Of a DNA stretch of 64,000 nt, positions 24,589-59,177 are shown one piece after another. The notes under the pieces are model-generated. The model saw only the letters and a program-made list of their open reading frames with translations, searched no databases and was not told the origin of the DNA. Positions within the stretch are counted from its first letter, which is position 1. The number at the start of each line of letters is the position of its first letter. The DNA comes from an uncultured Planctomycetales bacterium (GTDB lineage Bacteria; Omnitrophota; Gorgyraeia; Zapsychrales; CAYRXT01), in assembly GCA_964428315.1 (NCBI GenBank), contig CAYRXT010000005.1, positions 12,592 through 76,591 on the forward strand, written 5' to 3'. The position numbers were made by a program, and so were the translations under genes.

Positions 24589-24924
24589 CTACTGGCAGAA
24601 ACGCATCAGCCGATGCATGTTCATCAACTGAATTTCATTGAAGCGGATGCCTGCTTTTTGATCAGCGTCGGTCTTGTCGTTCTCTTCAATCCAGATGATT
24701 GAACCTTTCAGGATAACGGGATCATGGCCGTCAGGCAGGTTTACTACGAGGGAAACCGGCTCATTCATCGTGAAATCCTGCCGGGAGACAAGCTTCGCAC
24801 CTTCGGCGGAAAGGTCTTGAAGAATGCCGCTGTTACCTTCACTTTGGGACATCTCCCCAAAGCGGACCGGCAGATCGGCATTCAACCGGCCAAAAATCCT
24901 TCTGTCACCCGCACGCTCCATCAT
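24589..24924 (-). CDS. PilZ-domain protein (c-di-GMP receptor), single domain
   Basis: RRIFGRLNADLPVRF (RxxxR) and DLSAEGAKLVS (DxSxxG). Start trimmed to the ATGATG at 24924, which has a GAGAGAGG SD; the track start at 24993 would overlap the upstream gene. Confidence 0.7.
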   Translation of the reverse strand: MMERAGDRRIFGRLNADLPVRFGEMSQSEGNSGILQDLSAEGAKLVSRQDFTMNEPVSLVVNLPDGHDPVILKGSIIWIEENDKTDADQKAGIRFNEIQLMNMHRLMRFCQ

Positions 24925-24937
24925 CTTCTGACCTCTC

Positions 24938-25258
24938 TCAAACAAAGACCTTGCAACGCCGTATCTTGGACTTCGCACCATGGATAATCTCAATGAACTT
25001 CAGTCCAACGCGATACCGGGAACCATCCCCGATCTTGTTGATCCATTGCACAACGCCCAGGGCCAGCACCGGATCTTCATCCGGGTTAAGATCAATCTGA
25101 ACCATCATCCTGGTATTGACAGGGATATAACGATCGGAAACAAACCCCGCGCCCCCTTCGGAAATATCCACCGTCCGGCTGCCGTCAAAGGGAGCGCCGG
25201 ATTTGACATCAACGAGTACGCGGCAGTTTTTTCTTGGGTTTTTCCTTTGGTTTACCAT
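24938..25258 (-). CDS. PilZ-domain protein (c-di-GMP receptor), single domain
   Basis: QRKNPRKNCRVLV (RxxxR) and DISEGGAGFVS (DxSxGG); 106 aa. Confidence 0.7.
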   Translation of the reverse strand: MVNQRKNPRKNCRVLVDVKSGAPFDGSRTVDISEGGAGFVSDRYIPVNTRMMVQIDLNPDEDPVLALGVVQWINKIGDGSRYRVGLKFIEIIHGAKSKIRRCKVFV

Positions 25259-25433
25259 GATTTACGCCCAAATTTATTTTAGCAATGATAATTTAAATTA
25301 AAATCTTTTTTAATGTTTTCTGCGACCAGCTCTTTTTTTTCCATTTTTGAATCATCAGCTTCTCATAACATCCCGACGCGACGCCCTATTACTGATAAAG
25401 AAAACGCTTTCTTTCAGAGTATATCAGATTTTT

Positions 25434-42528: not shown

Positions 42529-42945
42529 TCAGTCTCCAATCACTTTGATTAAGGCGCGCTTGCGCCGGCGCCCGTCGAATTCGCCGTAAAATATCTGTTC
42601 CCACGGCCCGAAATCCAGCCGGCCCTTGGTGATGGCGACAACGACTTCCCTCCCCATGACCTGCCGTTTCATGTGCGCGTCGGCATTGTCCTCGCCGACG
42701 TTATGGCGGTATTGGGATACCGGCTCGTGGGGGGCAAGCCTCTCCAGCCAATCGTCGTAATCCTGGATAAGGCCGCTCTCGTCGTCATTAATGTAGACAC
42801 TCGCGGTAATATGCATGGCGTTCACAAGGACAAAACCCTCTTTCACACCGCTTTTGTCAACGGCCTCCTGGACTTTCCCGGTAACGTTGATGTAATCCCT
42901 TCTTGTCTTTGAATTAAACCAAAGCTCTTCGCGGTAGCTTTTCAT
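42529..42945 (-). CDS. YjbQ-family protein (UPF0047; secondary thiamine-phosphate synthase)
   Basis: 138 aa; YjbQ fold consensus ([25 protein letters not shown]...[15 protein letters not shown]). Confidence 0.75.
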
Positions 42946-43023: not shown

Positions 43024-44772
43024 TCATTTTTCCGCATCTCTCCACTTTTTTTCCAAAGAACGCCGCGCATCGATGAAAACAGGGTGTCCCGGAAAGGCCT
43101 CAAGACTTCTGCGAAGCGCACCGCGGATTTTGTCCCTTTCCCCTGACAAGACGGCGCTTTGGAGATACCGTTCCAGCGTCGGTCTATCCGGCTCAATGAG
43201 CCCGAGAACGTCCTCATAGCATGCCGCGGCCCGGGCATGTTCTCCACGGCGGGCATAGGCCCAGCAGAGATCTTTGCGGGCGTTGACATAATCCGGCCGC
43301 AGGGCCAAGGCCTTCCTTAAAAGCGCGATAGTCTTGTCCGGGTCGTGAATATGCGAAACCGCCAGATCACGTAAATAGACGGGATGTTCCGGATCCAGAC
43401 GAAGACTTTTTTGAAAATGTTCCCTCGCCTCGGCGTAAAGGCCAAGACGCGCGTAACAGACGCCCAGACGGTGATGCGGCCTCGGATACGAGGGATAGTG
43501 CTCCGCCAGAAAGGAGGCCTGCGCGAACTCGTCTCTCCACAAACCAATCAAGGACAATGAAGAGACAAACACGACACTCACTAATCCCAGCCTGACGGTG
43601 TACCGCAGACCCTGCCGCGTCGTGAACATCTTTCTGGAAAAAACACTATCCTCAAGCCAGAGGACCAAAGCGGCCATCATCCCGGCGAGGGGTATATACA
43701 AGAAACGCCAGGCCATGGGATTGATCAAGGGAATGATATTGGACGCCGGGACAAGCCCCAGGGCAAACCACAGGAGAAAAAAGAGCCGCCTCCTGTCTTG
43801 TCGGAAACTCCGAAACAGGATCCACACGCTGGCCGCGCACACCGTTACCGATACAAGGTTTTGGAGATCCCATAGAGGAAGAACATCGGGCCGGAAAACC
43901 GCAGGCAGAGGTTTGACCATGACCGGGAACAGGACAGCCAGCACATAACCGGCCAGGATATCGACGACCGTGAGGACATGGACAAAGAGGCTGTTCTCAA
44001 AAAGCGTCAATCCCGAAAGGCTCTGGGCCGGGAAAACAACCGCATAAACAACGGCATAAAAGGAAAAGACGCACAGAAAGCCAAGGTAATCGGTCCTCAA
44101 CCTCCGCCGGAAAGGCGCGACGCCGCGATGGCCGGGAAAACAATGATCGCAGGCCGGAAGGAGCCCCAGGAGAACAACCGCCGTTTCTTTGCTGAACAGT
44201 GCCAGTCCAAACAGCGCCACCGAGAGCGCTGTCCTCCGGCGCACATAAGCCAAGAGCGAAGTCGCGACAAAGAAAAAAGCCGCGATATCCGACCGGAATC
44301 CGATATTCACCACGGCCTCAGTGCCCGCGGGATGCAGGGCAAACAGGAGCGCGCTGAAAAAGGCCGTCTCTTTCCGGGAAAGAAGGGCGAAGATCAAAAA
44401 ATAGAAAACGACCGCGTTGGCGAGGTGAAGTAGGATATTCGTCAGATGATAGCCGAAAGGCCGGCCCCGCCAGAGATAATAATCCCAGAAAAATGTCGCG
44501 CTGACAACCGGCCGGTAGGTGACCGACCCGGACCCCAGATCCCCGCGGCCTTTGAGAAAGGCCTCGTCGCTGACCGTAAAATAGCTCTCGTCGAACAGAC
44601 GGACAACATTCTCCGGACGGGAATAGAACGTGTTGTTGACGATGATCAGGTAATCGTCACCGACAAAGTCATGTCCCAGGCTGGGCGCATAGAGCGTGCC
44701 AGCCAGCAACACAATCATAAGGATGTTGCGCCAATGTCCCGCCGGCGTTTTAACTAACGGGCTAGAAGGCAT
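43024..44772 (-). CDS. Polytopic GT-C-fold (PMT/ArnT/TMTC-like) membrane protein with C-terminal TPR repeats
   Basis: N-terminal HDFVGDDYLII motif and ~10 TM helices like DUF1736/PMT_2 glycosyltransferases. C-terminal ~180 aa are TPR-like (HHRLGVCYARLGLYAEAREHFQKSLRLDPEHP...). Start chosen at the ATG at 44772, an 11-nt overlap with the upstream gene. Confidence 0.6.
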   Translation of the reverse strand: MPSSPLVKTPAGHWRNILMIVLLAGTLYAPSLGHDFVGDDYLIIVNNTFYSRPENVVRLFDESYFTVSDEAFLKGRGDLGSGSVTYRPVVSATFFWDYYLWRGRPFGYHLTNILLHLANAVVFYFLIFALLSRKETAFFSALLFALHPAGTEAVVNIGFRSDIAAFFFVATSLLAYVRRRTALSVALFGLALFSKETAVVLLGLLPACDHCFPGHRGVAPFRRRLRTDYLGFLCVFSFYAVVYAVVFPAQSLSGLTLFENSLFVHVLTVVDILAGYVLAVLFPVMVKPLPAVFRPDVLPLWDLQNLVSVTVCAASVWILFRSFRQDRRRLFFLLWFALGLVPASNIIPLINPMAWRFLYIPLAGMMAALVLWLEDSVFSRKMFTTRQGLRYTVRLGLVSVVFVSSLSLIGLWRDEFAQASFLAEHYPSYPRPHHRLGVCYARLGLYAEAREHFQKSLRLDPEHPVYLRDLAVSHIHDPDKTIALLRKALALRPDYVNARKDLCWAYARRGEHARAAACYEDVLGLIEPDRPTLERYLQSAVLSGERDKIRGALRRSLEAFPGHPVFIDARRSLEKKWRDAEK

Positions 44773-47566
44773 GGTTGACACCGAACCAGAAACGCGTGTC
44801 TTTTTTCGGGTCGCGGATCGCCTGCGCCGCGTCGACACGCACGATGATCTTCTCGAGAAAAGAACCCAGGGAGACGTGGAAGCGCAGCCCCACACCGGCG
44901 TCTTTTTTCAGGTCGGAATCGTTGAAGGCTTTGAACCAGTTGTGTCCCGCCTCGGCGAAGACGACCCCGTCCACGGCCTCGAAGCCTATAATGTTATCGA
45001 AAATCTTGACATCCATTCTGGGGATGATCGGGAACCGGTATTCCAGGCTCCCCAGCGCGATGTTCGCCCCCCGCAACGTCTTCCGGTCATAGCCCCTCAG
45101 CCCGTCCGGCCCGCCGAGTTCAAAGAGACTGCGGTCGTTGGGATAGCCTCCGGCGAATTTCAGGCGCAGGGCCGCCTGGGAATGAACCGTGACCGGCCGG
45201 TACAGGGACACATCGATCCCGCCGCGGTTGAAAGACTGCGTGGCGCCCAGGAAATGCCCTGAATGTTCAAAAAAGGTGCTCACGCGGTAACCCTGCGAGG
45301 GGTCGAGCACAGGTTCACTGCGGTCGAAAAACAGGGCCGCCCCTGCAACCGCTTCGTTTTTGCGCAGGTAGGAGATATTGCGGTCGTCCTCCGCAGGCTC
45401 GAGCACCGTCCCGCGGTTGATCTCACGGTTGCGGATTAGATAAAACGTGACATGATCGTTGATCTGGGAAAGGCCGTAGGCCATAGGCCACAGCTCCTTA
45501 CGTAAATATATTTTCCCTCCGACGAGATCCCGGTCCCCGTTCTCGAGATCGGTCGTGTTGAACAGTTCGAATCCCGCCGTGGCCAGCGTGTGAAAAACAT
45601 TCTTCACCTGATAACCCACCCGCGTCTTGTGCAGCTGCTCCCCGAACTCGTAGCCGGTCGCCGCATAAAAATTCTGGTCGAACGGTTTCTGCAAAGAGGC
45701 CTTCATCCCCAGCCCGTTCGCGATGATCTCCGGCCCGACGACAAGGTTATACGCGTCCTCGGGCAGGAAAAGCGACATGTCATACAGCGAAAGATAGAGC
45801 GGAACCGGCTCGACGTTCAGCCGGCGGGGCCAGTAATTGTTCGTCCGGTCGATATCCAAAAGGGCCTTTTGGGGATCGACGATCACCTCGCGAATCCGCC
45901 CTCCATCTCCGGCCAAAAGCACATCCCGCTCTTTGTCCCCGCCCCACACAAGGTCCTGGGTCCGGCCGTCTTCAAAGACGACGAGCACATCCGCATCCAC
46001 CGCGATACCGCCGCGGTTTTCCACATGGATCGCATTGTGTTCGACGGCGTTGACGGCATAGTCAAAATATTCGGCCGTCCTCAGCCACTGCCTGAAAAAC
46101 TCCCCCAGGTCCTTCCCACTCTCTTCTTCAGCGATGCGGACAAAGTCCTTCGTGCTGAGATTTCCGAAACGGTATTCCCGGAAGATCCTCCGGAACACAG
46201 CCCGGAAGGCCTCCTCCCCCACTGTATAACGCAGCATGGCCATAATCGCCGAACCTTTACCGTAGGTAATGGAAAAAATGCTGCTCGGCTCCTCGTAACT
46301 GGAGAGCTCGCTCTGCACCGGGTAATCCCAGTTGGTCCGGGCGATGATCTTATAGCGGTAGTCGCGCGCCTTGCGGAAAGAGGTATTGGGGAGGAGCCAG
46401 TCTATCCATTCCGGCCATTCGACGACCTCGGCGTTTTCGCCGTATTTGGCCTCAAGATACTGAAGGATAAAATAGGAATTCACCCCCTCCTCCAGCCACA
46501 TCTCGGAGAATTCATCCATGCCGACGAGATTATAAAACCACTGGTGGCCCGTCTCGTGCGCGATCAGAAAATCGAAATGCCGTTTCAGGATCCGCGGCTC
46601 GTCGAAAACGCGCGTATCCATAAAGACCATATTGGACATCTGTTCCCCGCCATAAGCCAGATGAACCGGTGCAATGCTGAACTGTTCATAGGGATATTCC
46701 CCGAACAGCTGTGTATAGAACTCCATCAAATCCCCGGCGCTGTCCAGGGCCATGGCGGCGTGCTCCTCGTCGCCGGGGAGATAATAACAGCGGAGCTCGG
46801 CCTCCGCTCTCCTGGTGCTCATGACCCGGTACCGCGGACTTAAGGCTAGGGTGAATTCCCTTACCGGGAGCCGCGTGGAGATCTTCAGGGTCTTCTTGCC
46901 CTCGCCGGTCGCACGCTCTTCGTCCAAGGTGCCCGTATGGATCACGCACATGTCTTCCGCCACCGTCAGCTCAACATCATAAATCGCGGCGTCGCTGAAG
47001 AACGGCCTATGGAAAGGATAGAACGGGGGATTGTTCCAGCCCCTTTCATCATGAACCGACAGAACGGGATACCAACGCGAGAGGGCAAATATGTCGTCAA
47101 TCCACCCGAAGCGGCCGTAGGAATGGGGTATCCGGAGGGTGAATCCCATGGACACGACGGCCTCCTCGCCTGGCATGAGAGGCTGTTCGAGGAGGACCTT
47201 CAATAAGGTGTCGTCCTCTCCCATTATCTCAAAGGCTCCCGGAATGTCGTTGACCCTGACATCGGAGAAGTGCATGTCCGGCACGGGGAAGCCGTCGGGA
47301 AAGGCATCAACATTAAAATAGCCTGCGTAGCGCATCATGAAGCTTTTTTCCTCATCGGAATACCGCCGGTTCGGATAGATATGGAAAAAGATTTCATGAA
47401 GGGGAGCCTCGCTCCTGTTTTGGTAGGTCACGCGCTGTTGGGCTGAGATTGTTTTTTCGTCCGTATCGACCGACGCCCGGATCTCGTACCGAGGCTGCGC
47501 GCCCGCCGCGGCCACCCATACCAGCGGGATCGCCAGCAAACCGATTCTCCAGAATATTTTTCTCAT
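44762..47566 (-). CDS. Secreted M1-family zinc aminopeptidase fused to a C-terminal Omp85/BamA-like outer-membrane beta-barrel
   Basis: Signal peptide MRKIFWRIGLLAIPLVWVAAAGA. HETGHQWF-x18-WLEEG gluzincin motif. The last ~330 aa are alternating amphipathic strands with GPDGLRGYD, GVGLRFHVSLGS and a terminal RFWFGVNHAF aromatic beta-signal. GGAGGTG SD upstream. Confidence 0.75.
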   Translation of the reverse strand: MRKIFWRIGLLAIPLVWVAAAGAQPRYEIRASVDTDEKTISAQQRVTYQNRSEAPLHEIFFHIYPNRRYSDEEKSFMMRYAGYFNVDAFPDGFPVPDMHFSDVRVNDIPGAFEIMGEDDTLLKVLLEQPLMPGEEAVVSMGFTLRIPHSYGRFGWIDDIFALSRWYPVLSVHDERGWNNPPFYPFHRPFFSDAAIYDVELTVAEDMCVIHTGTLDEERATGEGKKTLKISTRLPVREFTLALSPRYRVMSTRRAEAELRCYYLPGDEEHAAMALDSAGDLMEFYTQLFGEYPYEQFSIAPVHLAYGGEQMSNMVFMDTRVFDEPRILKRHFDFLIAHETGHQWFYNLVGMDEFSEMWLEEGVNSYFILQYLEAKYGENAEVVEWPEWIDWLLPNTSFRKARDYRYKIIARTNWDYPVQSELSSYEEPSSIFSITYGKGSAIMAMLRYTVGEEAFRAVFRRIFREYRFGNLSTKDFVRIAEEESGKDLGEFFRQWLRTAEYFDYAVNAVEHNAIHVENRGGIAVDADVLVVFEDGRTQDLVWGGDKERDVLLAGDGGRIREVIVDPQKALLDIDRTNNYWPRRLNVEPVPLYLSLYDMSLFLPEDAYNLVVGPEIIANGLGMKASLQKPFDQNFYAATGYEFGEQLHKTRVGYQVKNVFHTLATAGFELFNTTDLENGDRDLVGGKIYLRKELWPMAYGLSQINDHVTFYLIRNREINRGTVLEPAEDDRNISYLRKNEAVAGAALFFDRSEPVLDPSQGYRVSTFFEHSGHFLGATQSFNRGGIDVSLYRPVTVHSQAALRLKFAGGYPNDRSLFELGGPDGLRGYDRKTLRGANIALGSLEYRFPIIPRMDVKIFDNIIGFEAVDGVVFAEAGHNWFKAFNDSDLKKDAGVGLRFHVSLGSFLEKIIVRVDAAQAIRDPKKDTRFWFGVNHAF

Positions 47567-47597: not shown

Positions 47598-49595
47598 TCA
47601 TTCCTTCAGGCTCAATGGATTGAAATTCTCGATGGCCATCATCATGTACGCCGTCCCCGCCACCGAACCGGTCCGGTCGCCGTAAGGTGTTCGCCAGCCA
47701 TGACCGGTATCGGCGTATTCCAGAGTCGCGTAAGGCAAGCATCCTTCCCCCTGGCCCAGAGGCGAGGGGCTGGAAATGATCAGCTTGTTGAGCTCGTCCA
47801 GATAACGCGAGGCCTTCCGCCGGTAATACACCGCCTTCATATCGTTGCCTCCGGCGGAAAAATAGTCGGCGAGGATCTGGAAAGAGATTGCCATCTGCGA
47901 CGTCCATTCCGGTGAGACCATGCCGCCCCGCGGCATGTGCTTGTGCCTGGCGAAATCAAAACCCGTGACCTCGACCTCGACGCCGCTCGGACGGGGATAC
48001 ATCACCGTCACGCCGCAGTGTTCTTCGGCAAAATTCATGATCCGTTCGGGATCCATCCCCAACGATTCAAGCATCTCCGGACCCAGGGCCGCCAGAGACC
48101 AGGCGAAGGTATCGGTGGCGATGGTAGCATCACCCCGGCCCCTGTTTACCGGCGGCCTCCGGTAATCCCCGCTGTGTTTCACCATGGCGTAGGTCTTGAG
48201 CCAGCTTGCGGTCTTTCGGCGGGCCACATCGTATTTGTCCTTGTTCGTTAGCCGGTGGAGCATATCAAAGAAGGCGTAGGCGTCCAGGTTGTGCTCGGTG
48301 GCGAACCAGTCGAAATCGGGTCCACCGCGCAGTCCGCCGGCCGGGTCCTGGTCCTGGAGCGCAATCAGCCATCCGGCGATGGCTTCGGCCAGCGGAAGAT
48401 AAGAAGAATCCCCCGTTTTATGTTGATACTGCATAGCGGCGATGCCTGCCCATATGTTGGGACCGCAGTGGACGGTATACTCGGCGACTTCGCCGGAATC
48501 AAAGAAGTACGCGTTGTAAAAACCGGCATATCCTTGTGACATCATTCTCGAAAAGAAATTGAGGATCTTCTTCGCCCGCGGGACGTCTTCCGCCAGCAGA
48601 AAACAGTTGACGGCCAGGGCCTGATCGTAGATGAAGGCCCAGTCCTCGATGACGCCGACCTCTCCTTCAAAACTTTTCACGAGGCCCGTCGTCGAGCTCT
48701 GATGCCGGGCAAGCCACGCGTGCATCTGTTTCCAGACGGAATCTCTGAGGCCCTTTTTCTGTCGCTCGAGCATCTCCCTCTCGTCCTCCATCATCCTCTC
48801 CCGGCGCACCAGAAGATCATACTCGTCTTCCAAAGGCCCACGCCTTTCCTTCATTTCACGGAGTGTTTTTTTCAGGTCCATGATCGTTTTTTCCGACAGT
48901 TTCAACTCCCGGGCCATGGCGTCTTCCTGCTGTGTCCGCACGCGCAGGCCCTCCTGCGCCTCCTCAAGCCGGGCCGTCAAAGTCCGGATTTCGCGTGAAT
49001 ATTCGGCTATATCTTCCGCCAGCCTTGCTTTCCGGGATTCGATAGTCTCCAGGAGGCCGCCCAGGCGCGCCTCTTTCTGCTGAACCGTCACCAGGGCATC
49101 GACAAGCGCCGCGTTTCTTTCCTGCAGGCGCAGGTTATCCCTAAGACTGACAAGAAAAAGGGCAAAAAAGACACACACGGCCGCTGTCGCCAGGCGGGGG
49201 GCCCATACACTCCAGCGCGCATAACGGGTGAGCCGTTCCCGGTCAGATTCCGCTATTTCAACAAACCGCAGACCCGCCTGGAAATCAGCGGGAATGCGTT
49301 CCCCGGCCCGTTCCGTCCAGACCACCTCGCCCAAGGCCTCCACCGGAGGGCCGGACAAAGGAACGCGTATACGCAACCGGAGACGCGGCGGCCGGTTGTC
49401 CCGAGGCTTAAGCCAGTCCTCAAACTGATTGATGCCAAGACAAATGCCTCCGCGGCTGATATTGCAGGTGTAGCCCTGCTTCCAGACCGTTCCGTCCTCC
49501 TCCGGCGCCGCGCCGGGAGCGCGGTACTCCACGGGAAAGACGCTCTGCAAACGAATAAATTCTCTCTTATCGAGATGTAGAGTCTTTTTCTTCAT
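47598..49595 (-). CDS. PilZ domain - TM helix - long coiled coil - C-terminal ~340-aa globular (possibly alpha/alpha-toroid) domain protein
   Basis: N-terminal KREFIRLQSVFPV...YTCNISRGGICLGIN (PilZ), TM WAPRLATAAVCVFFALFLVSL, ~170 aa heptad E/R/L region, then an aromatic/Gly-rich domain (HCGPNIWAGIAAMQYQ...AEAIAGWLIALQDQDPAGGLRGG). Start at the ATG at 49595. Confidence 0.65.
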   Translation of the reverse strand: MKKKTLHLDKREFIRLQSVFPVEYRAPGAAPEEDGTVWKQGYTCNISRGGICLGINQFEDWLKPRDNRPPRLRLRIRVPLSGPPVEALGEVVWTERAGERIPADFQAGLRFVEIAESDRERLTRYARWSVWAPRLATAAVCVFFALFLVSLRDNLRLQERNAALVDALVTVQQKEARLGGLLETIESRKARLAEDIAEYSREIRTLTARLEEAQEGLRVRTQQEDAMARELKLSEKTIMDLKKTLREMKERRGPLEDEYDLLVRRERMMEDEREMLERQKKGLRDSVWKQMHAWLARHQSSTTGLVKSFEGEVGVIEDWAFIYDQALAVNCFLLAEDVPRAKKILNFFSRMMSQGYAGFYNAYFFDSGEVAEYTVHCGPNIWAGIAAMQYQHKTGDSSYLPLAEAIAGWLIALQDQDPAGGLRGGPDFDWFATEHNLDAYAFFDMLHRLTNKDKYDVARRKTASWLKTYAMVKHSGDYRRPPVNRGRGDATIATDTFAWSLAALGPEMLESLGMDPERIMNFAEEHCGVTVMYPRPSGVEVEVTGFDFARHKHMPRGGMVSPEWTSQMAISFQILADYFSAGGNDMKAVYYRRKASRYLDELNKLIISSPSPLGQGEGCLPYATLEYADTGHGWRTPYGDRTGSVAGTAYMMMAIENFNPLSLKE

Positions 49596-49607
49596 GGCTC
49601 CCAAGGT

Positions 49608-50723
49608 TTACTCGGTCCCGGCATGCTCCTCGGCCAGACGGATACGTCTGGCAACCGGGGGATGATCATAGAAAAGGATCACATCCAACCTGCGGGGATC
49701 CCATTCGGCCAGATTCCGTTCGGCCAGCTTTCGCATCATGGAAATGAAATCATCCGTCTTTCCCGTCAGGGTGATCGCGAAACGGTCGGCCCGGACCTCC
49801 AGGTGCCGGCTGAAGGCGTTCATTAGGGGAGTCAGGACCAGCCCGACGAGCGAAAAGGCCAGCAGGATCACCGGCAGAAACGCGATATCATCAAGTCGTT
49901 CAAAACCGAACCAGGGCAGAGCCGCGGAAAGGAAGAGGTGGACCAGAAAGAAACTCCCCGCCGCGGCCAGCGTCTGCGCGAGAGCCATCCAAACGATGTC
50001 ATGATGTTTATAATGGCTCATCTCATGCGCCACGACGGTCTCGATTTCCTCGCGGGTAAAACCTTTGACAAGCGTATCGCTCAGGACCACGCGCCGCGAA
50101 GAGCCCAGGCCGCAGATAAAGGCATTGGCCTTTGAGGATTTGCGCGAAAGGTCTATCGTATAGACATCCTTAAGAAGTACGCCGCAGCGGTCAAATAAAC
50201 GCGCGATCCGCCGGCGGAGCTCTTCATCTTCAACCGGTGTATACCTGAAAAAAAGCGGGACGATGACGCGTGGGGTGATGTGGGCCAGGAACAGCGAAAA
50301 CAACAGCCAGAAACCCGTCGCGGCCATCCACCATGTCCGAGGCCAGAGGCCGAGGAAAACACAGATGACGTGCGCGAGGGTAAAAAATACGAGAAATCCG
50401 ACAGCGGCCTTTTTCGCTTCGTCCCGACACCATGCCCAGAACGACTGCGCGGAAAGACCGAAACGGTGTTCCAGATAAAAGGTCCCGTACATGTTGAAGG
50501 GCAGATGAAGCAATAAAAGGAAGGTCCCGAAAAGGACAAGAAACAGCGAGCGCGCAAAAAACGCCCCTTCCGCCACACTCCATGACCATTCACGCAGTCC
50601 GGCGGACCACCCGGCAAAGGACCACACACACAGAGCCGCAAGGTCAAAGGTAAGCGAGAGGAAAAAAAGCCGCCTCTTGATCCAATGGTAATGTTTCGCT
50701 CTGCCGTGAGTTCCGTTATTCAC
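49608..50723 (-). CDS. M48-family (Ste24/HtpX-like) integral-membrane zinc metalloprotease
   Basis: HEMSHY (HExxH) after several TM helices; C-terminal helical region; GTG start. Confidence 0.85.
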   Translation of the reverse strand: MNNGTHGRAKHYHWIKRRLFFLSLTFDLAALCVWSFAGWSAGLREWSWSVAEGAFFARSLFLVLFGTFLLLLHLPFNMYGTFYLEHRFGLSAQSFWAWCRDEAKKAAVGFLVFFTLAHVICVFLGLWPRTWWMAATGFWLLFSLFLAHITPRVIVPLFFRYTPVEDEELRRRIARLFDRCGVLLKDVYTIDLSRKSSKANAFICGLGSSRRVVLSDTLVKGFTREEIETVVAHEMSHYKHHDIVWMALAQTLAAAGSFFLVHLFLSAALPWFGFERLDDIAFLPVILLAFSLVGLVLTPLMNAFSRHLEVRADRFAITLTGKTDDFISMMRKLAERNLAEWDPRRLDVILFYDHPPVARRIRLAEEHAGTE

Positions 50724-50733
50724 GTCCGTCTCG

Positions 50734-51126
50734 TCAGGGGTTGCGCCGGGATTTCAAATCCTCGATAAAGGTGAAGAAGCGGTCATCGTCCCTCAGGTTG
50801 TTGAGATCACCGTCATTCATGATATGATCAAGATCCCGGTATCCGCATTCCACGGCCGTCCGGAGCGACGCCAGGGCGTTTTCTATGTCGCCGGTGAGCG
50901 AATAACTGCAGGCCAGATTGTACAGAACAACGGGATCACGGGGCTTCAGCGCCAGGAGTTTCTGATCGACACAGAGCCCCTTATCGAAAAGTCCTCTCTT
51001 GGTATAAAGATCCCCTAGGGCCATCAGGGCTTCGATGAAGTCCGGCCGTTTGGCCAACACACCCTCATAAAAACAGATCTCATAGTCCAGGTCTTTAAAC
51101 GAAGGACGTCCCAATGAGCTCCCCAT
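50734..51126 (-). CDS. TPR-repeat protein
   Basis: Three TPR-like hairpins (ALMALGDLYTKRGLFDKGLCVDQKLLALKPRDPVVLYNLACSYSLTGDIENALASL). Confidence 0.6.
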   Translation of the reverse strand: MGSSLGRPSFKDLDYEICFYEGVLAKRPDFIEALMALGDLYTKRGLFDKGLCVDQKLLALKPRDPVVLYNLACSYSLTGDIENALASLRTAVECGYRDLDHIMNDGDLNNLRDDDRFFTFIEDLKSRRNP

Positions 51127-53095: not shown

Positions 53096-54160
53096 CTACC
53101 TGTGCCTCTTCAGGTCAATAAGGTCCTTGATCATGGCCATGTCCTTTTTCAGATCCTGAACCACCTGCCGGAGATCCCTGACCCTCTCCTTAAGATGGAC
53201 GTTGGTCTCTTCAAGCTCTTTGATCTGAAGGGTCAGGGCCTCCACGGGGAGCGGAACGGCCAGTTCGGTTTCTAGTCCGGCAATCGCCGTTTCCACCTGC
53301 CCGATCTCGCCCTCCAAGGCTTGCCTTTCTTCTTCCAGGCGATCCTTCTTCTCGCGCGCCTCCTCGAGCGGCCGCTCCTTACGTTCGACACCTCTCTGTA
53401 TCTCCTCCTTGAGCTTCTCAACTCTTCGGCTCAATCGCGCATTGTCTTTACGTACCCGGCTTATCTGTCTCGCGAGCTTTCGATTCTCGTTCTCCAGCTT
53501 TCTCAAATCCTCATCCGATAAAACCCCCTGCCGGATATCCGCAAGGAGGTCCTGTCCAGCCGCCGCCTGGACGGCATCCGTCTCCAGGATCCTGTTTTGA
53601 ATCTTCGCGATCTCTTCCTGCGTCTTTCCGAGAGCCTGTTGTTTTTCCGACAGCAACCGGCTATGCTGTTCCTCGAGAGCGGCATGCTTTTTTTCCAAGG
53701 TCTCCACCTGTGTGCTCAACGGCAGGAGTGTCTTTTTCTCGTGATCGACCTTATCGCGAAGCCGGCCGACCTCTTTCTCAAGGACTCTCCTTTTGAGTTT
53801 GAGTTCATGAACCGTCGCATTGTGCGTCTGCCGGGAATCCGGTTCGGGTGAAGACGGCAGCACGGGCTTCCTGATCTGCGGCATAAGAAGATCAATCTCC
53901 ATTTCAAGCGCAAGGACCTGCTGTCTCAAGCGGTTGTGCTCATCCGTCAGCCTCTCGTTCTCATTGACCAGCTGAAGGGCCAGCTCTCTCAGCTCTCTGA
54001 CATTCATCCGGAGGATATTGGCGACCCATTCCGAGGGAAGGGCGAATTCTTCCTGAACCTCTGCGCCTTCGGGTGAACCCGAAGGCGCGGTCTGCGCCGA
54101 AACGGCGGCGGAAAAACATAAAAACAGGCCGCACAGCGTGAGGATACGGTGTCTCTTCAT
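53096..54160 (-). CDS. Secreted coiled-coil protein (hypothetical)
   Basis: Signal peptide MKRHRILTLCGLFLCFSAAVSAQTA followed by ~300 aa of continuous E/K/R/L/Q heptad-like sequence. Confidence 0.55.
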   Translation of the reverse strand: MKRHRILTLCGLFLCFSAAVSAQTAPSGSPEGAEVQEEFALPSEWVANILRMNVRELRELALQLVNENERLTDEHNRLRQQVLALEMEIDLLMPQIRKPVLPSSPEPDSRQTHNATVHELKLKRRVLEKEVGRLRDKVDHEKKTLLPLSTQVETLEKKHAALEEQHSRLLSEKQQALGKTQEEIAKIQNRILETDAVQAAAGQDLLADIRQGVLSDEDLRKLENENRKLARQISRVRKDNARLSRRVEKLKEEIQRGVERKERPLEEAREKKDRLEEERQALEGEIGQVETAIAGLETELAVPLPVEALTLQIKELEETNVHLKERVRDLRQVVQDLKKDMAMIKDLIDLKRHR

Positions 54161-58760: not shown

Positions 58761-59177
58761 TTATTGTCCGATATACTGGACGGCCATCCTGCGCCGGCGG
58801 GAACGGTTGTCGAAATCGACGAAGACGATCTGCTGCCACGTGCCCAGGACAAGATCTCCCCCGCTAACCGGAATGGTGATTGAAGGCCCGACCACGGATG
58901 AGCGCAGATGCGAATGTCCGTTGCCGTCATGCCATGTCTGGTCGTGATGGTAGCGCCCCGGAGGGATCAGCTTGTCGAAGAGTTCGGGGATATCCTTGAT
59001 GAGACCCGGTTCAAACTCGCAGGTCGTGACAGCCGCGGTGGACCCGATCGCGCTGACGGTCACGATCCCCTCCCGGATCTTCGCCTGCTGGACGATTTCC
59101 CGGACGTCGGCTGTCACGTCCCTGACATCACCGCGGCCTTTGGTGTCGAATTCGATATATTCTGTTTGACTCTTCAT
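58761..59177 (-). CDS. YjbQ-family protein (UPF0047), second copy
   Basis: 138 aa; IVTVSAIGSTAAVTTCEFEPGLIKD...LVLGTWQQIVFVDFDN. ~35% identical to the copy at 42529..42945. Confidence 0.75.
   Translation of the reverse strand: MKSQTEYIEFDTKGRGDVRDVTADVREIVQQAKIREGIVTVSAIGSTAAVTTCEFEPGLIKDIPELFDKLIPPGRYHHDQTWHDGNGHSHLRSSVVGPSITIPVSGGDLVLGTWQQIVFVDFDNRSRRRRMAVQYIGQ

What the first reader, a model, noticed from the sequence alone, without database searches (positions are those of the whole stretch)
47598..49595. PilZ receptor fused via a single TM helix to a ~170-aa coiled coil and an unassigned aromatic/Gly-rich C-terminal domain
The N-terminal PilZ has both RxxxR-like (KREFIRL) and DxSxGG-like (NISRGGICL) motifs. 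A single TM and a long heptad region follow. The C-terminal domain is ~340 aa with GGxxGG-like and Trp-rich motifs (AEAIAGWLIALQDQDPAGGLRGG; HCGPNIWAGIAAMQY) reminiscent of alpha/alpha-toroid (six-hairpin glycosidase or prenyltransferase/terpene-cyclase-repeat) folds. If the coiled coil and toroid are periplasmic, this is an inside-out c-di-GMP transducer in the manner of Alg44 or LapD, with a novel output domain.
Basis: partly seen in the sequence, partly recalled or inferred. Interest (0 to 1): 0.6.

Follow-up and report, generated by a model that had tools for sequence, protein, structure and literature searches.

The report
PilZ-anchored periplasmic glycosidase-like protein of Omnitrophota
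This gene encodes a membrane protein that has a cyclic-di-GMP-binding PilZ domain inside the cell and, outside the inner membrane, a long helical hairpin carrying a sugar-enzyme-like barrel; the combination is conserved across the phylum Omnitrophota and has not been described, and it may let an internal signal control an enzyme in the cell envelope.

Summary
A 665-aa gene lies on the minus strand at 47598-49595. It encodes four parts:
- A canonical PilZ domain (Pfam 39.4 bits against a cutoff of 22.5), with RxxxR and (D/N)xSxxG conserved in 68-69 of 69 relatives.
- One transmembrane helix.
- About 146 aa of helix. This is most likely an antiparallel hairpin rather than a straight coiled coil, because every indel in the family is centred on the predicted turn.

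The barrel belongs to an undescribed family with no Pfam or NCBIfam model. It lacks the GH76 Asp-Asp pair, which is an invariant Gly-Pro here. Four carboxylates (D324, E434, D495, E563) are nearly invariant across all architectures. Those architectures include signal-peptide paralogs and giant Omnitrophota proteins, so the domain is exported and probably catalytic.

At least 435 species genomes carry the fusion, and almost all are labelled Omnitrophota. Linkage to M1-Omp85 (16%), M48 (17%) and the multi-TM/TPR gene (8%) is clade-specific. The commonest neighbour, at 53%, is a DUF3857/transglutaminase-like lipoprotein.

The best reading is an inside-out c-di-GMP switch that controls a periplasmic glycan hydrolase. 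This is inferred and has not been shown.

The parts
47598..49595 (-). Complete CDS, 665 aa plus stop: PilZ, TM helix, helical hairpin and (alpha/alpha)6 barrel
   Evidence: There are 455 full-length homologues. The database gene call P0001 starts 15 aa later at a TTG and cuts off the RxxxR motif.
49218..49568 (-). PilZ domain (aa 10-126), cytoplasmic c-di-GMP receptor module
   Evidence: Pfam PF07238 scores 39.4 bits against a cutoff of 22.5 and is found in 68/69 relatives. AF2 predicts a beta-barrel at 14-114 followed by a C-terminal helix, with pLDDT 80-93.
49551..49565 (-). RxxxR motif (R11-E-F-I-R15, preceded by K10)
   Evidence: R11 and R15 are each present in 68/69 rows; the remaining row is gapped. 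Position 10 is K or R in 52/69.
49446..49463 (-). (D/N)xSxxG motif (N45-I-S47-R-G49-G50)
   Evidence: Position 45 is N in 60 and D in 9 sequences. Position 47 is S in 53 and G in 14. G50 is present in 69/69.
49143..49196 (-). Single transmembrane helix (aa ~134-151), continuous with the PilZ C-terminal helix
   Evidence: Kyte-Doolittle 2.02 here, with a family mean of 2.34. Each protein has one such segment, starting at aa 116-167. K/R counts average 4.1 on the N-terminal flank and 2.9 on the C-terminal flank. AF2 predicts one unbroken helix from 116 to 221.
48705..49142 (-). Periplasmic helical hairpin: arm 1 aa 152-221, turn 222-226, arm 2 aa 227-297
   Evidence: AF2 secondary structure with pLDDT 81-90, dropping to 62 at the turn. 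All family indels of 8 aa or more (204-249, 219-230, 217-234 and others) are centred on the predicted turn. The base is conserved (N161, M291 and W294 invariant; L157, L164, V165 and L168 show a heptad pattern), while the tip is variable.
47601..48704 (-). (alpha/alpha)6-barrel domain (aa 298-665), an undescribed glycosidase-like family
47907..48626 (-). Span holding the putative active-site carboxylates: D324 (48624-48626), E434 (48294-48296), D495 (48111-48113), E563 (47907-47909). It also holds G378-P379 (48459-48464), which replace the GH76 catalytic Asp-Asp.
   Evidence: Among 110 cluster representatives of all architectures, E434, D495 and E563 are invariant in the standalone and giant-protein classes (28/28 and 14/14), with single substitutions among the PilZ-fused and, for E563, the 'other' representatives. 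D324 is present in 104/110. The mapping of GH76 DD onto GP comes from HMMER alignments to GH76 structures.
49608..50723 (-). Upstream neighbour: Ste24/HtpX-type M48 metalloprotease, 12 nt from the target's ATG
   Evidence: Pfam Peptidase_M48 and Peptidase_M48_N. It lies upstream of the target in 10/60 related loci.
44762..47566 (-). Downstream neighbour: M1 peptidase-Omp85 fusion with a signal peptide, 31 nt after the target's stop
   Evidence: Pfam result and N-terminal sequence. It lies downstream of the target in 10/61 related loci.

Best explanation
The protein is a type-II inner-membrane protein. Its N-terminal PilZ domain sits in the cytoplasm and binds c-di-GMP. The PilZ C-terminal helix runs without a break into the single TM helix and then into arm 1 of a periplasmic antiparallel helical hairpin about 100 A long. 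Arm 2 returns to the membrane surface and leads into an (alpha/alpha)6 barrel.

The barrel has a conserved funnel of carboxylates (D324, E434, D495, E563). I read it as an active glycan hydrolase of an undescribed family in the six-hairpin superfamily, most likely inverting and MmpH/GH15-like.

Proposed mechanism: c-di-GMP binding changes the packing or dimerisation of the PilZ C-terminal helix. That change is passed through the TM helix to the conserved hairpin base, which packs against the first helix of the barrel. The result is a change in the barrel's orientation, oligomeric state or substrate access, so that cytoplasmic c-di-GMP sets the activity of an envelope glycan-processing enzyme.

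Shown here: domain composition, motif conservation, fold, family distribution, and the exported nature of paralogs. Inferred: topology, the hairpin, catalysis, and the direction and effect of signalling. The substrate is unknown.
For: - PilZ scores above the Pfam threshold, and RxxxR and (D/N)xSxxG are conserved in 68-69 of 69 relatives.
- Published analysis reports that PilZ domains in fusion proteins retain c-di-GMP binding, and that the C-terminal helix is their interaction element (bioRxiv 10.1101/814665).
- Each relative has one conserved hydrophobic helix, and AF2 predicts a continuous helix from 116 to 221 through it.
- Indels are symmetric about the predicted turn, which supports a hairpin. 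The hairpin base is conserved and the tip is variable.
- Weak but recurrent GH76 HMM hits occur in 37/69 members.
- E434, D495 and E563 are near-invariant across 110 diverse representatives, and D324 is present in 104/110. The toroid is the most conserved region of the protein.
- Standalone paralogs carry signal or lipobox peptides, and the same domain occurs in giant Omnitrophota proteins. Proteins of that kind have been reported to contain a GH76-like fold and were proposed to degrade cell walls (bioRxiv 10.1101/2023.11.21.568195).
- Recurrent neighbours are all envelope proteins.
Against: - Nothing biochemical was tested.
- hhalign to GH15 glucoamylase is non-significant (probability 0.3%).
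- The GH76 catalytic Asp-Asp is absent.
- The closest structural match, MmpH, acts on an intracellular mycobacterial polysaccharide, so fold alone does not show the domain is exported.
- The hairpin comes from a monomer AF2 model plus the indel pattern. A straight dimeric coiled coil is not excluded.
- No diguanylate cyclase was found in the 64-kb window.
- No conserved polysaccharide-synthesis partner points to a substrate.
Confidence: 0.45

Rival explanations
1. LapD-like scaffold. On binding c-di-GMP, the periplasmic hairpin and toroid capture or release a periplasmic partner, rather than hydrolysing glycan. Candidate partners are the transglutaminase-like lipoprotein, the M48 protease or M1-Omp85. 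The toroid would act as a binding module.
For: A DUF3857/transglutaminase-core lipoprotein with a lipobox lies immediately upstream in 32/60 related loci. M48 and M1-Omp85 flank the gene in the window's clade. From established knowledge, LapD controls LapG, which is a transglutaminase-like cysteine protease.
Against: The window itself has no such lipoprotein nearby. In 15/60 loci none of the recurrent window-clade neighbours lies upstream, and those checked have housekeeping genes there. The near-invariant carboxylate set is shared with secreted and giant paralogs that lack PilZ, which points to catalysis rather than a partner-specific interface. The hairpin tip is variable. Transglut_core is a different Pfam family from LapG's.
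Confidence: 0.2
2. Outside-in sensor. The toroid binds a periplasmic or prey-derived glycan, and the signal travels inward to change what the PilZ domain does, for example its c-di-GMP affinity or its binding of a cytoplasmic partner.
For: The single-pass architecture with a helical stalk resembles sensor receptors. Two small stand-alone PilZ genes elsewhere in the window show that PilZ-based signalling is in use.
Against: PilZ has no known enzymatic output, and no conserved cytoplasmic partner gene is linked. The carboxylate constellation and the very high conservation of the toroid look like an enzyme site.
Confidence: 0.1
3. Alg44-like co-polymerase. The protein would be part of a trans-envelope exopolysaccharide secretion machine, with the hairpin reaching an outer-membrane partner as in membrane-fusion proteins. 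The toroid would trim the polymer, as BcsZ and AlgL do.
For: It shares the N-terminal PilZ and single TM with Alg44. Its helical hairpin resembles those of membrane-fusion proteins. An Omp85-family protein lies downstream in this clade.
Against: No HlyD/MFP domain was detected. No GT2 synthase or export genes are in the neighbourhood. The hairpin tip is the least conserved and most indel-prone part. M1-Omp85 is linked in only 16% of loci.
Confidence: 0.1
4. Constitutive envelope enzyme. PilZ would serve only as an anchoring or oligomerisation module, and c-di-GMP would not regulate the periplasmic domain.
For: No signalling step has been shown. The pre-TM helix and the TM segment are the least conserved parts outside the hairpin tip.
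Against: The c-di-GMP contact motifs are under strict conservation: R11 and R15 in 68/69 rows (the other is gapped) and G50 in 69/69. A purely structural module would not need that. The hairpin base next to the membrane is conserved.
Confidence: 0.1
5. Isoprenoid-handling toroid. The barrel would be of the terpene-cyclase or prenyltransferase type and would work with the adjacent Ste24-type CAAX-protease homologue.
Confidence: 0.03

Closest known systems
Alg44 (Pseudomonas alginate co-polymerase; PilZ-TM-periplasmic domain)
   Same: N-terminal canonical PilZ, a single TM helix, and a C-terminal periplasmic domain. c-di-GMP sensed in the cytoplasm acts on an envelope process. The PilZ C-terminal helix is probably the coupling or dimerisation element.
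   Different: The periplasmic part is a helical hairpin plus an (alpha/alpha)6 glycosidase-like barrel, not an HlyD/MFP-like domain. There is no Alg8-type glycosyltransferase partner and no alginate operon.
LapD-LapG inside-out c-di-GMP switch
   Same: A cytoplasmic c-di-GMP receptor coupled through the membrane to a periplasmic output. In about half of the relatives a periplasmic transglutaminase-like lipoprotein is encoded directly upstream.
   Different: The receptor is PilZ, not a degenerate GGDEF-EAL with HAMP. The periplasmic domain has a different fold. The window itself has no transglutaminase-like neighbour, and no partner interaction has been shown.
MmpH and clan GH-L enzymes (GH15 glucoamylase and dextran dextrinase, GH125)
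   Different: Identity is 7-12%. There is no sequence-profile relationship. The equivalence of catalytic residues is untested. The toroid here is membrane-tethered and periplasmic.
GH76 alpha-1,6-mannanases (for example BT3792 4c1s, BT_3782 4mu9)
   Different: All hits fall below Pfam's threshold. The catalytic Asp-Asp of GH76 aligns to the family's invariant Gly-Pro, and GH76 lacks the equivalent of E434.
GH76-like modules in giant Omnitrophota proteins ('Archaeovorins')
   Same: The same toroid family, by profile search, occurs in Omnitrophota proteins of 3,000-7,900 aa and keeps the same invariant carboxylates. The preprint reports a GH76-like fold in such proteins, along with nearby pilZ genes and GGDEF domains.
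   Different: Those modules sit in huge secreted or surface proteins with no covalent PilZ. Here a single copy is fused directly to PilZ through the membrane.

Membership tests
PilZ domain (PF07238), canonical c-di-GMP receptor | HMM score above the curated threshold | tested here: met
   39.4 bits against 22.5, E 8.2e-10, aa 10-126. 68/69 relatives match.
PilZ domain (PF07238), canonical c-di-GMP receptor | RxxxR and (D/N)xSxxG c-di-GMP-binding motifs | tested here: met
   R11 and R15 are each present in 68/69 rows (the other is gapped). Position 45 is N or D in 69/69, S47 is present in 53/69, and G50 in 69/69.
PilZ domain (PF07238), canonical c-di-GMP receptor | Beta-barrel fold followed by a long C-terminal helix | tested here: met
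   AF2 predicts strands at 14-114 and then a helix from 116. This is a predicted model only.
PilZ domain (PF07238), canonical c-di-GMP receptor | Actual binding of c-di-GMP | not testable with these tools
   Needs ITC, DRaCALA or MST on the purified domain.
Alg44-type PilZ-TM-MFP proteins | N-terminal PilZ plus a single TM helix | tested here: met
Alg44-type PilZ-TM-MFP proteins | Periplasmic HlyD/membrane-fusion-protein domain | tested here: not met
   No HlyD-family Pfam hit appears in the window protein or among the 25 families most often matched by the 69 relatives. The periplasmic part is a hairpin plus an (alpha/alpha)6 barrel.
Alg44-type PilZ-TM-MFP proteins | Genetic association with a GT2 polysaccharide synthase | tested here: not met
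   None found in the window neighbourhood or in the annotated flanks of related loci.
LapD-type inside-out receptors | HAMP plus degenerate GGDEF-EAL cytoplasmic module and a LapD-type periplasmic domain | tested here: not met
   The only family hits are PilZ plus weak GH-like and coiled-coil matches.
LapD-type inside-out receptors | Cognate periplasmic transglutaminase-like protease partner | tested here: inconclusive
   A DUF3857/Transglut_core lipoprotein lies upstream in 32/60 related loci, but not in this window. No interaction data exist.
GH76 alpha-1,6-mannanase (PF03663) | HMM score above the curated threshold | tested here: not met
   The window protein scores 13.4 bits against 25.9. 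The best relative reaches E 3.5e-6.
GH76 alpha-1,6-mannanase (PF03663) | Consecutive catalytic Asp-Asp before the N-x-W helix | tested here: not met
   It aligns to G378-P379. G378 is conserved in 106 of 110 representatives and is invariant in every class except the PilZ-fused one.
Clan GH-L / MmpH-like inverting (alpha/alpha)6 hydrolases | (alpha/alpha)6 barrel closely superposable on family members | tested here: met
Clan GH-L / MmpH-like inverting (alpha/alpha)6 hydrolases | Catalytic acid and base carboxylates at the equivalent structural positions | tested here: inconclusive
   Near-invariant D324, E434 and E563 sit at inner-helix N-termini. This matches the positions described for MmpH Asp47 and Glu262 in helix order only. 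No superposition was possible.
Clan GH-L / MmpH-like inverting (alpha/alpha)6 hydrolases | Detectable sequence or profile homology | tested here: not met
   hhalign to 3eqa_A gives probability 0.3%. Profile searches against PDB sequences find no GH15, GH125 or MmpH chains.
Class II terpene cyclase / prenyltransferase toroids | DxDD or QW motifs, and best structural similarity to cyclases | tested here: not met

The most novel reading that the evidence does not exclude
A single polypeptide forms a complete inside-out c-di-GMP switch. Nucleotide binding to PilZ in the cytoplasm would directly gate a periplasmic glycoside hydrolase that founds a new GH family. That would make it the first enzyme outside the cytoplasm controlled allosterically by c-di-GMP through one TM helix and a helical hairpin. 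It appears to be a core, vertically inherited gene of the phylum Omnitrophota. It could link c-di-GMP to remodelling of the organism's own envelope or to digestion of host or prey glycans, in step with the same catalytic module in the giant surface proteins.
Probability: 0.3. Interest if true: 0.8.

Novelty: new variant of a known kind. Interest (0 to 1): 0.58.

Why it matters
All well-studied c-di-GMP effectors that act on the envelope fall into two groups. Some regulate a cytoplasmic or membrane-embedded synthase (BcsA, Alg44-Alg8). Others sequester a separate periplasmic protease (LapD-LapG). A PilZ domain covalently wired to a periplasmic hydrolase-like barrel would be a third design. It would also be a compact model for how a signal crosses the membrane through a single helix.

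The barrel defines an unmodelled family in the six-hairpin superfamily, with at least 1,600 relatives. The same family recurs in the giant proteins that have been proposed to underlie the predatory or parasitic lifestyle of Omnitrophota, so finding its substrate would inform that biology.

The protein is small, modular and found in hundreds of genomes. Binding, topology and activity can therefore be tested in heterologous systems even though the phylum is uncultured.

Tried and rejected
- **Sequence searches of the toroid against PDB.** A single sequence gave 0 hits. The full-length profile gave only coiled-coil noise. Toroid-only profiles gave only sub-threshold GH76 hits.
- **Profile comparison to GH15.** hhalign of the broad toroid profile against A. 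niger glucoamylase gave probability 0.3% and a register-shifted hairpin match, so no residue mapping was possible. The bait sequence was verified as identical to 3eqa_A.
- **Disulfide idea.** C527 and C619 are invariant in the PilZ-fused subfamily, and I considered them as a periplasmic disulfide marker. I dropped this because neither is conserved in paralogs and no coordinates were available to measure the distance between them.
- **PilZ region against PDB.** phmmer found no PilZ hits. The Pfam HMM remains the evidence for PilZ.
- **AFDB Foldseek.** The library was unavailable.
- **Second homology search with the broad profile.** It returned only PilZ-fused proteins in the top 120, with no new annotation.
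- **Context of non-PilZ paralogs.** Uninformative.
- **Rfam scan.** No c-di-GMP riboswitch or any other family in the window.
- **Promoter and terminator scan.** Nothing decisive between the clustered genes.
- **Terpene-cyclase or prenyltransferase reading.** Rejected.
- **M1-Omp85 or 'GT-C' as obligate partners.** Rejected as a family-wide feature. The multi-TM/TPR neighbour has no GT-C HMM hit.
Full report
**Observation.** The finding's coordinates hold a real gene on the minus strand. The ORF runs 47598..49604. An ATG at 49595 follows a GGGAG and lies 12 nt after the stop of the upstream M48 gene, giving 665 aa. The public gene call for the identical protein (P0001, 650 aa) starts 15 codons later at a TTG and removes the RxxxR motif. 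Since residues 9-16 are conserved in relatives, the longer model is the right one.

**PilZ.** Pfam PilZ matches aa 10-126 at 39.4 bits, against a gathering score of 22.5, and matches 68 of 69 aligned relatives. The two c-di-GMP motifs are canonical and strictly conserved. The first is [KR]-R11-x-x-x-R15, with both Arg present in 68/69 rows (the other is gapped). The second is N/D45-x-S47-x-G49-G50, with G50 present in 69/69. AF2 predicts a beta-barrel at 14-114 followed by the long C-terminal helix typical of canonical PilZ. The published survey of PilZ domains states that PilZ in fusion proteins retains c-di-GMP binding and that this helix mediates interactions. It lists fusions to HlyD (Alg44), BcsA, REC, GGDEF, EAL, HD-GYP, MCP and CheC, but none to a glycosidase-like domain (10.1101/814665).

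**Membrane segment and topology.** The protein has one strongly hydrophobic segment at aa ~134-151 (Kyte-Doolittle 2.02). Every relative has exactly one, with mean 2.34 and start positions between aa 116 and 167. The next-best window averages 1.14. K/R counts favour the N-terminal flank, 4.1 against 2.9. With PilZ necessarily cytoplasmic, everything after aa ~152 should be periplasmic. Independent support comes from paralogs of the C-terminal domain that lack PilZ. These begin with classical signal peptides or lipoboxes, for example P0181, P0224 and P0243, so this domain family functions outside the cytoplasm.

**Helical region.** AF2 (full-length model, pLDDT 86.5, pTM 0.77) predicts a single helix from 116 to 221. 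It runs from PilZ through the membrane into the periplasm. A 5-residue break follows at 222-226, where pLDDT is ~62, and then a second helix spans 227-297. In the 69-sequence alignment, every gap of 8 residues or more in this region is centred on that break: 204-249 (46 aa, 23 sequences), 219-230, 217-234, 213-230 and others. Symmetric shortening of both arms is what an antiparallel hairpin predicts and what a straight coiled coil does not.

The hairpin base is conserved. N161, M291 and W294 are invariant, L157, L164, V165 and L168 fall on heptad positions, and H298 and Q299 are near-invariant. The tip is the most variable part of the protein. I therefore read the '170-aa coiled coil' as a hairpin of about 2 x 70 aa, roughly 100 A long, with a shorter class of about 2 x 47 aa. 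This would place the C-terminal domain back at the outer face of the inner membrane. This is an inference, because the coordinates could not be inspected.

No member has DxDD or QW motifs.

At the sequence level the only detectable relatives are GH76 mannanases, and these are sub-threshold: 37/69 members, best E 3.5e-6, with profile-to-PDB E values of 5e-4 to 0.2. In those alignments the GH76 catalytic Asp-Asp ('YDDNVWIG') falls on the family's invariant Gly-Pro ('HCGPNIW'). The GH76 mechanism is therefore excluded. hhalign to GH15 glucoamylase is non-significant.

**The toroid family.** A profile of the toroid alone finds 1,681 cluster representatives at E<=1e-3 and 191 at E<=1e-30. These include PilZ-fused proteins, ~420-450-aa secreted forms, and proteins of 3,000-7,900 aa. 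Those of the giant proteins that carry a source name are labelled Omnitrophota. A preprint on giant Omnitrophota genes reports a GH76-like fold in such proteins and proposes cell-wall degradation as their role. It also notes GGDEF domains in them and small pilZ genes next to them (10.1101/2023.11.21.568195).

I compared 110 representatives of all architectures. E434, D495, E563 and G378 are invariant in the standalone (28/28) and giant (14/14) classes. Substitutions are rare: a few among the PilZ-fused representatives, and one at E563 in the 'other' class. D324 is present in 104/110. Y323, W382, D438, D489, D547 and Y622 are highly conserved. Each of these residues sits at the N-terminus of an inner helix of the barrel, which is where (alpha/alpha)6 enzymes build their active-site funnel. 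MmpH uses Asp47 on the first hairpin and Glu262 late in the barrel as acid and base (PMC9883506). D324 and E563 occupy the corresponding helix order, and E434 matches the position of the GH15 acid. This mapping goes by topology only.

The toroid is by far the most conserved region of the protein, with mean column entropy 1.28 bits against 2.05 for PilZ. I conclude that it is probably an active carbohydrate-processing enzyme of an undescribed family, and that its substrate is unknown.

**Distribution and context.** There are 455 full-length homologues, and at least 1,449 with the broader profile. 435 species-representative genomes carry the gene. The 80 loci listed are almost all labelled Omnitrophota, apart from about ten 'uncultured Planctomycetales/Planctomycetia' labels. 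The gene sits in a long co-directional run of mostly housekeeping genes, including Era, PfkB, YjbQ, aminotransferases, Lrp and RNase T-WYL.

I quantified neighbours over the non-redundant loci with enough flank.
- Upstream (n=60): DUF3857/transglutaminase-core protein 32 (53%), small TPR protein 19, M48 10 (17%).
- Downstream (n=61): M1-Omp85 10 (16%), YjbQ 12, the multi-TM/TPR protein 5 (8%).
- In the remaining loci, the neighbours that were checked are unrelated housekeeping genes.

The fullest arrangement is DUF3857-TG, TPR, M48, target, M1-Omp85, as in L003. The DUF3857/transglutaminase protein of L005 has a lipoprotein signal. M1-Omp85 has a signal peptide. So the recurrent neighbours are all envelope peptidase-like proteins, but none is obligatory, and the window lacks the commonest one.

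**Mechanism.** The best-supported reading is an inside-out c-di-GMP effector. c-di-GMP binds PilZ. The PilZ C-terminal helix, which is continuous with the TM helix and hairpin arm 1, passes a packing or dimerisation change to the conserved hairpin base that abuts the barrel. This modulates a periplasmic glycan hydrolase. I put this at about 0.45 for the whole chain and above 0.9 for the anatomy. The rivals, with their evidence, are listed separately. They are a LapD-like partner-capture scaffold, an outside-in glycan sensor, an Alg44-like secretion component, a constitutive enzyme, and an isoprenoid-handling toroid.

**Comparison and novelty.** It works most like Alg44 (PilZ-TM-periplasmic domain) and LapD (inside-out signalling), but it fails the defining features of both families. 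It has no MFP domain and no synthase partner, and it has no GGDEF-EAL/HAMP module. The barrel resembles MmpH and GH15 in structure and GH76 in weak sequence signal, but it fails GH76 membership and cannot be assigned to GH15. I classify the protein as a new variant of a known kind: a PilZ receptor with a new periplasmic output that belongs to an unmodelled glycosidase-like family. I found no paper describing this architecture. The databases call it only 'PilZ domain-containing protein' or 'hypothetical protein'.

Noticed in passing
window 49551-49604 (minus): The public gene model of the identical protein (P0001, 650 aa) starts at an internal TTG and removes the conserved [KR]RxxxR c-di-GMP motif. 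The upstream ATG at 49595 restores it. Several homologues that show no precomputed PilZ hit may have the same start-site problem.
   Followed up: partly
window 24592-25261 (minus): Two adjacent small ORFs (about 107 and 136 aa) carry RxxxR...DxSxxG-type PilZ motifs and hit the target's PilZ weakly. These look like stand-alone PilZ proteins. No GGDEF motif was seen in any ORF of 100 aa or more in the window.
   Followed up: partly
window 44762-47566 (minus): A 934-aa protein with a signal peptide fuses an M1 (aminopeptidase N-type) peptidase domain to a C-terminal Omp85 beta-barrel. This is an unusual fusion. It lies downstream of the target in 16% of related loci.
   Followed up: partly
window 43024-44772 (minus): A multi-TM protein with a GDDY-containing first loop and C-terminal TPR repeats overlaps the M1-Omp85 stop by ~11 nt. 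It has no GT-C/PMT_2 Pfam hit and only a weak NCBIfam hit to a 'cell surface glycopolymer formation' family (24 bits against a cutoff of 150). The GT-C label is plausible but unverified.
   Followed up: partly
window 49608-51126 (minus): A Ste24-type M48 protease with a CAAX-protease N-domain is preceded by a 130-aa TPR 'end-of-group' protein. This pair travels together upstream of the target in a minority of Omnitrophota loci.
   Followed up: partly
L005 5551-7992 and about 40 other loci: A ~800-aa lipoprotein (TPR + DUF3857 + transglutaminase core) is the commonest immediate upstream neighbour of the target family, in 53% of loci. It often abuts or overlaps the target's open reading frame. 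It recalls LapG-type proteases, but this was not tested.
   Followed up: partly
P0185 (5959 aa), P0221 (7886 aa), P0267 (7623 aa), P0183, P0186: The same toroid family occurs in giant proteins of 3,000-7,900 aa, with up to five matched stretches in a single protein. P0185 and P0186 are labelled Omnitrophota; the others carry no source name or were not looked up. The domain keeps the same invariant carboxylates there.
   Followed up: partly
window 53096-54160 (minus): A 354-aa protein has a signal peptide and a long coiled-coil C-terminal half, with SMC-like low-complexity hits. It appears to be a secreted or periplasmic coiled-coil protein. A sigma-70-like promoter match lies just upstream at 54198-54170.
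   Followed up: no
window 42529-42945 and 58761-59177 (minus): Two YjbQ (UPF0047) paralogs bracket the ~16-kb block that contains the target. Related loci L001 and L008 show the same bracketing.
   Followed up: no
window 1-64000: GC skew is negative along almost the whole window, reaching a cumulative -1.93. In the stretch examined (about 36-59 kb) nearly all genes are on the minus strand. No Rfam family reaches threshold anywhere in the 64 kb.
   Followed up: no
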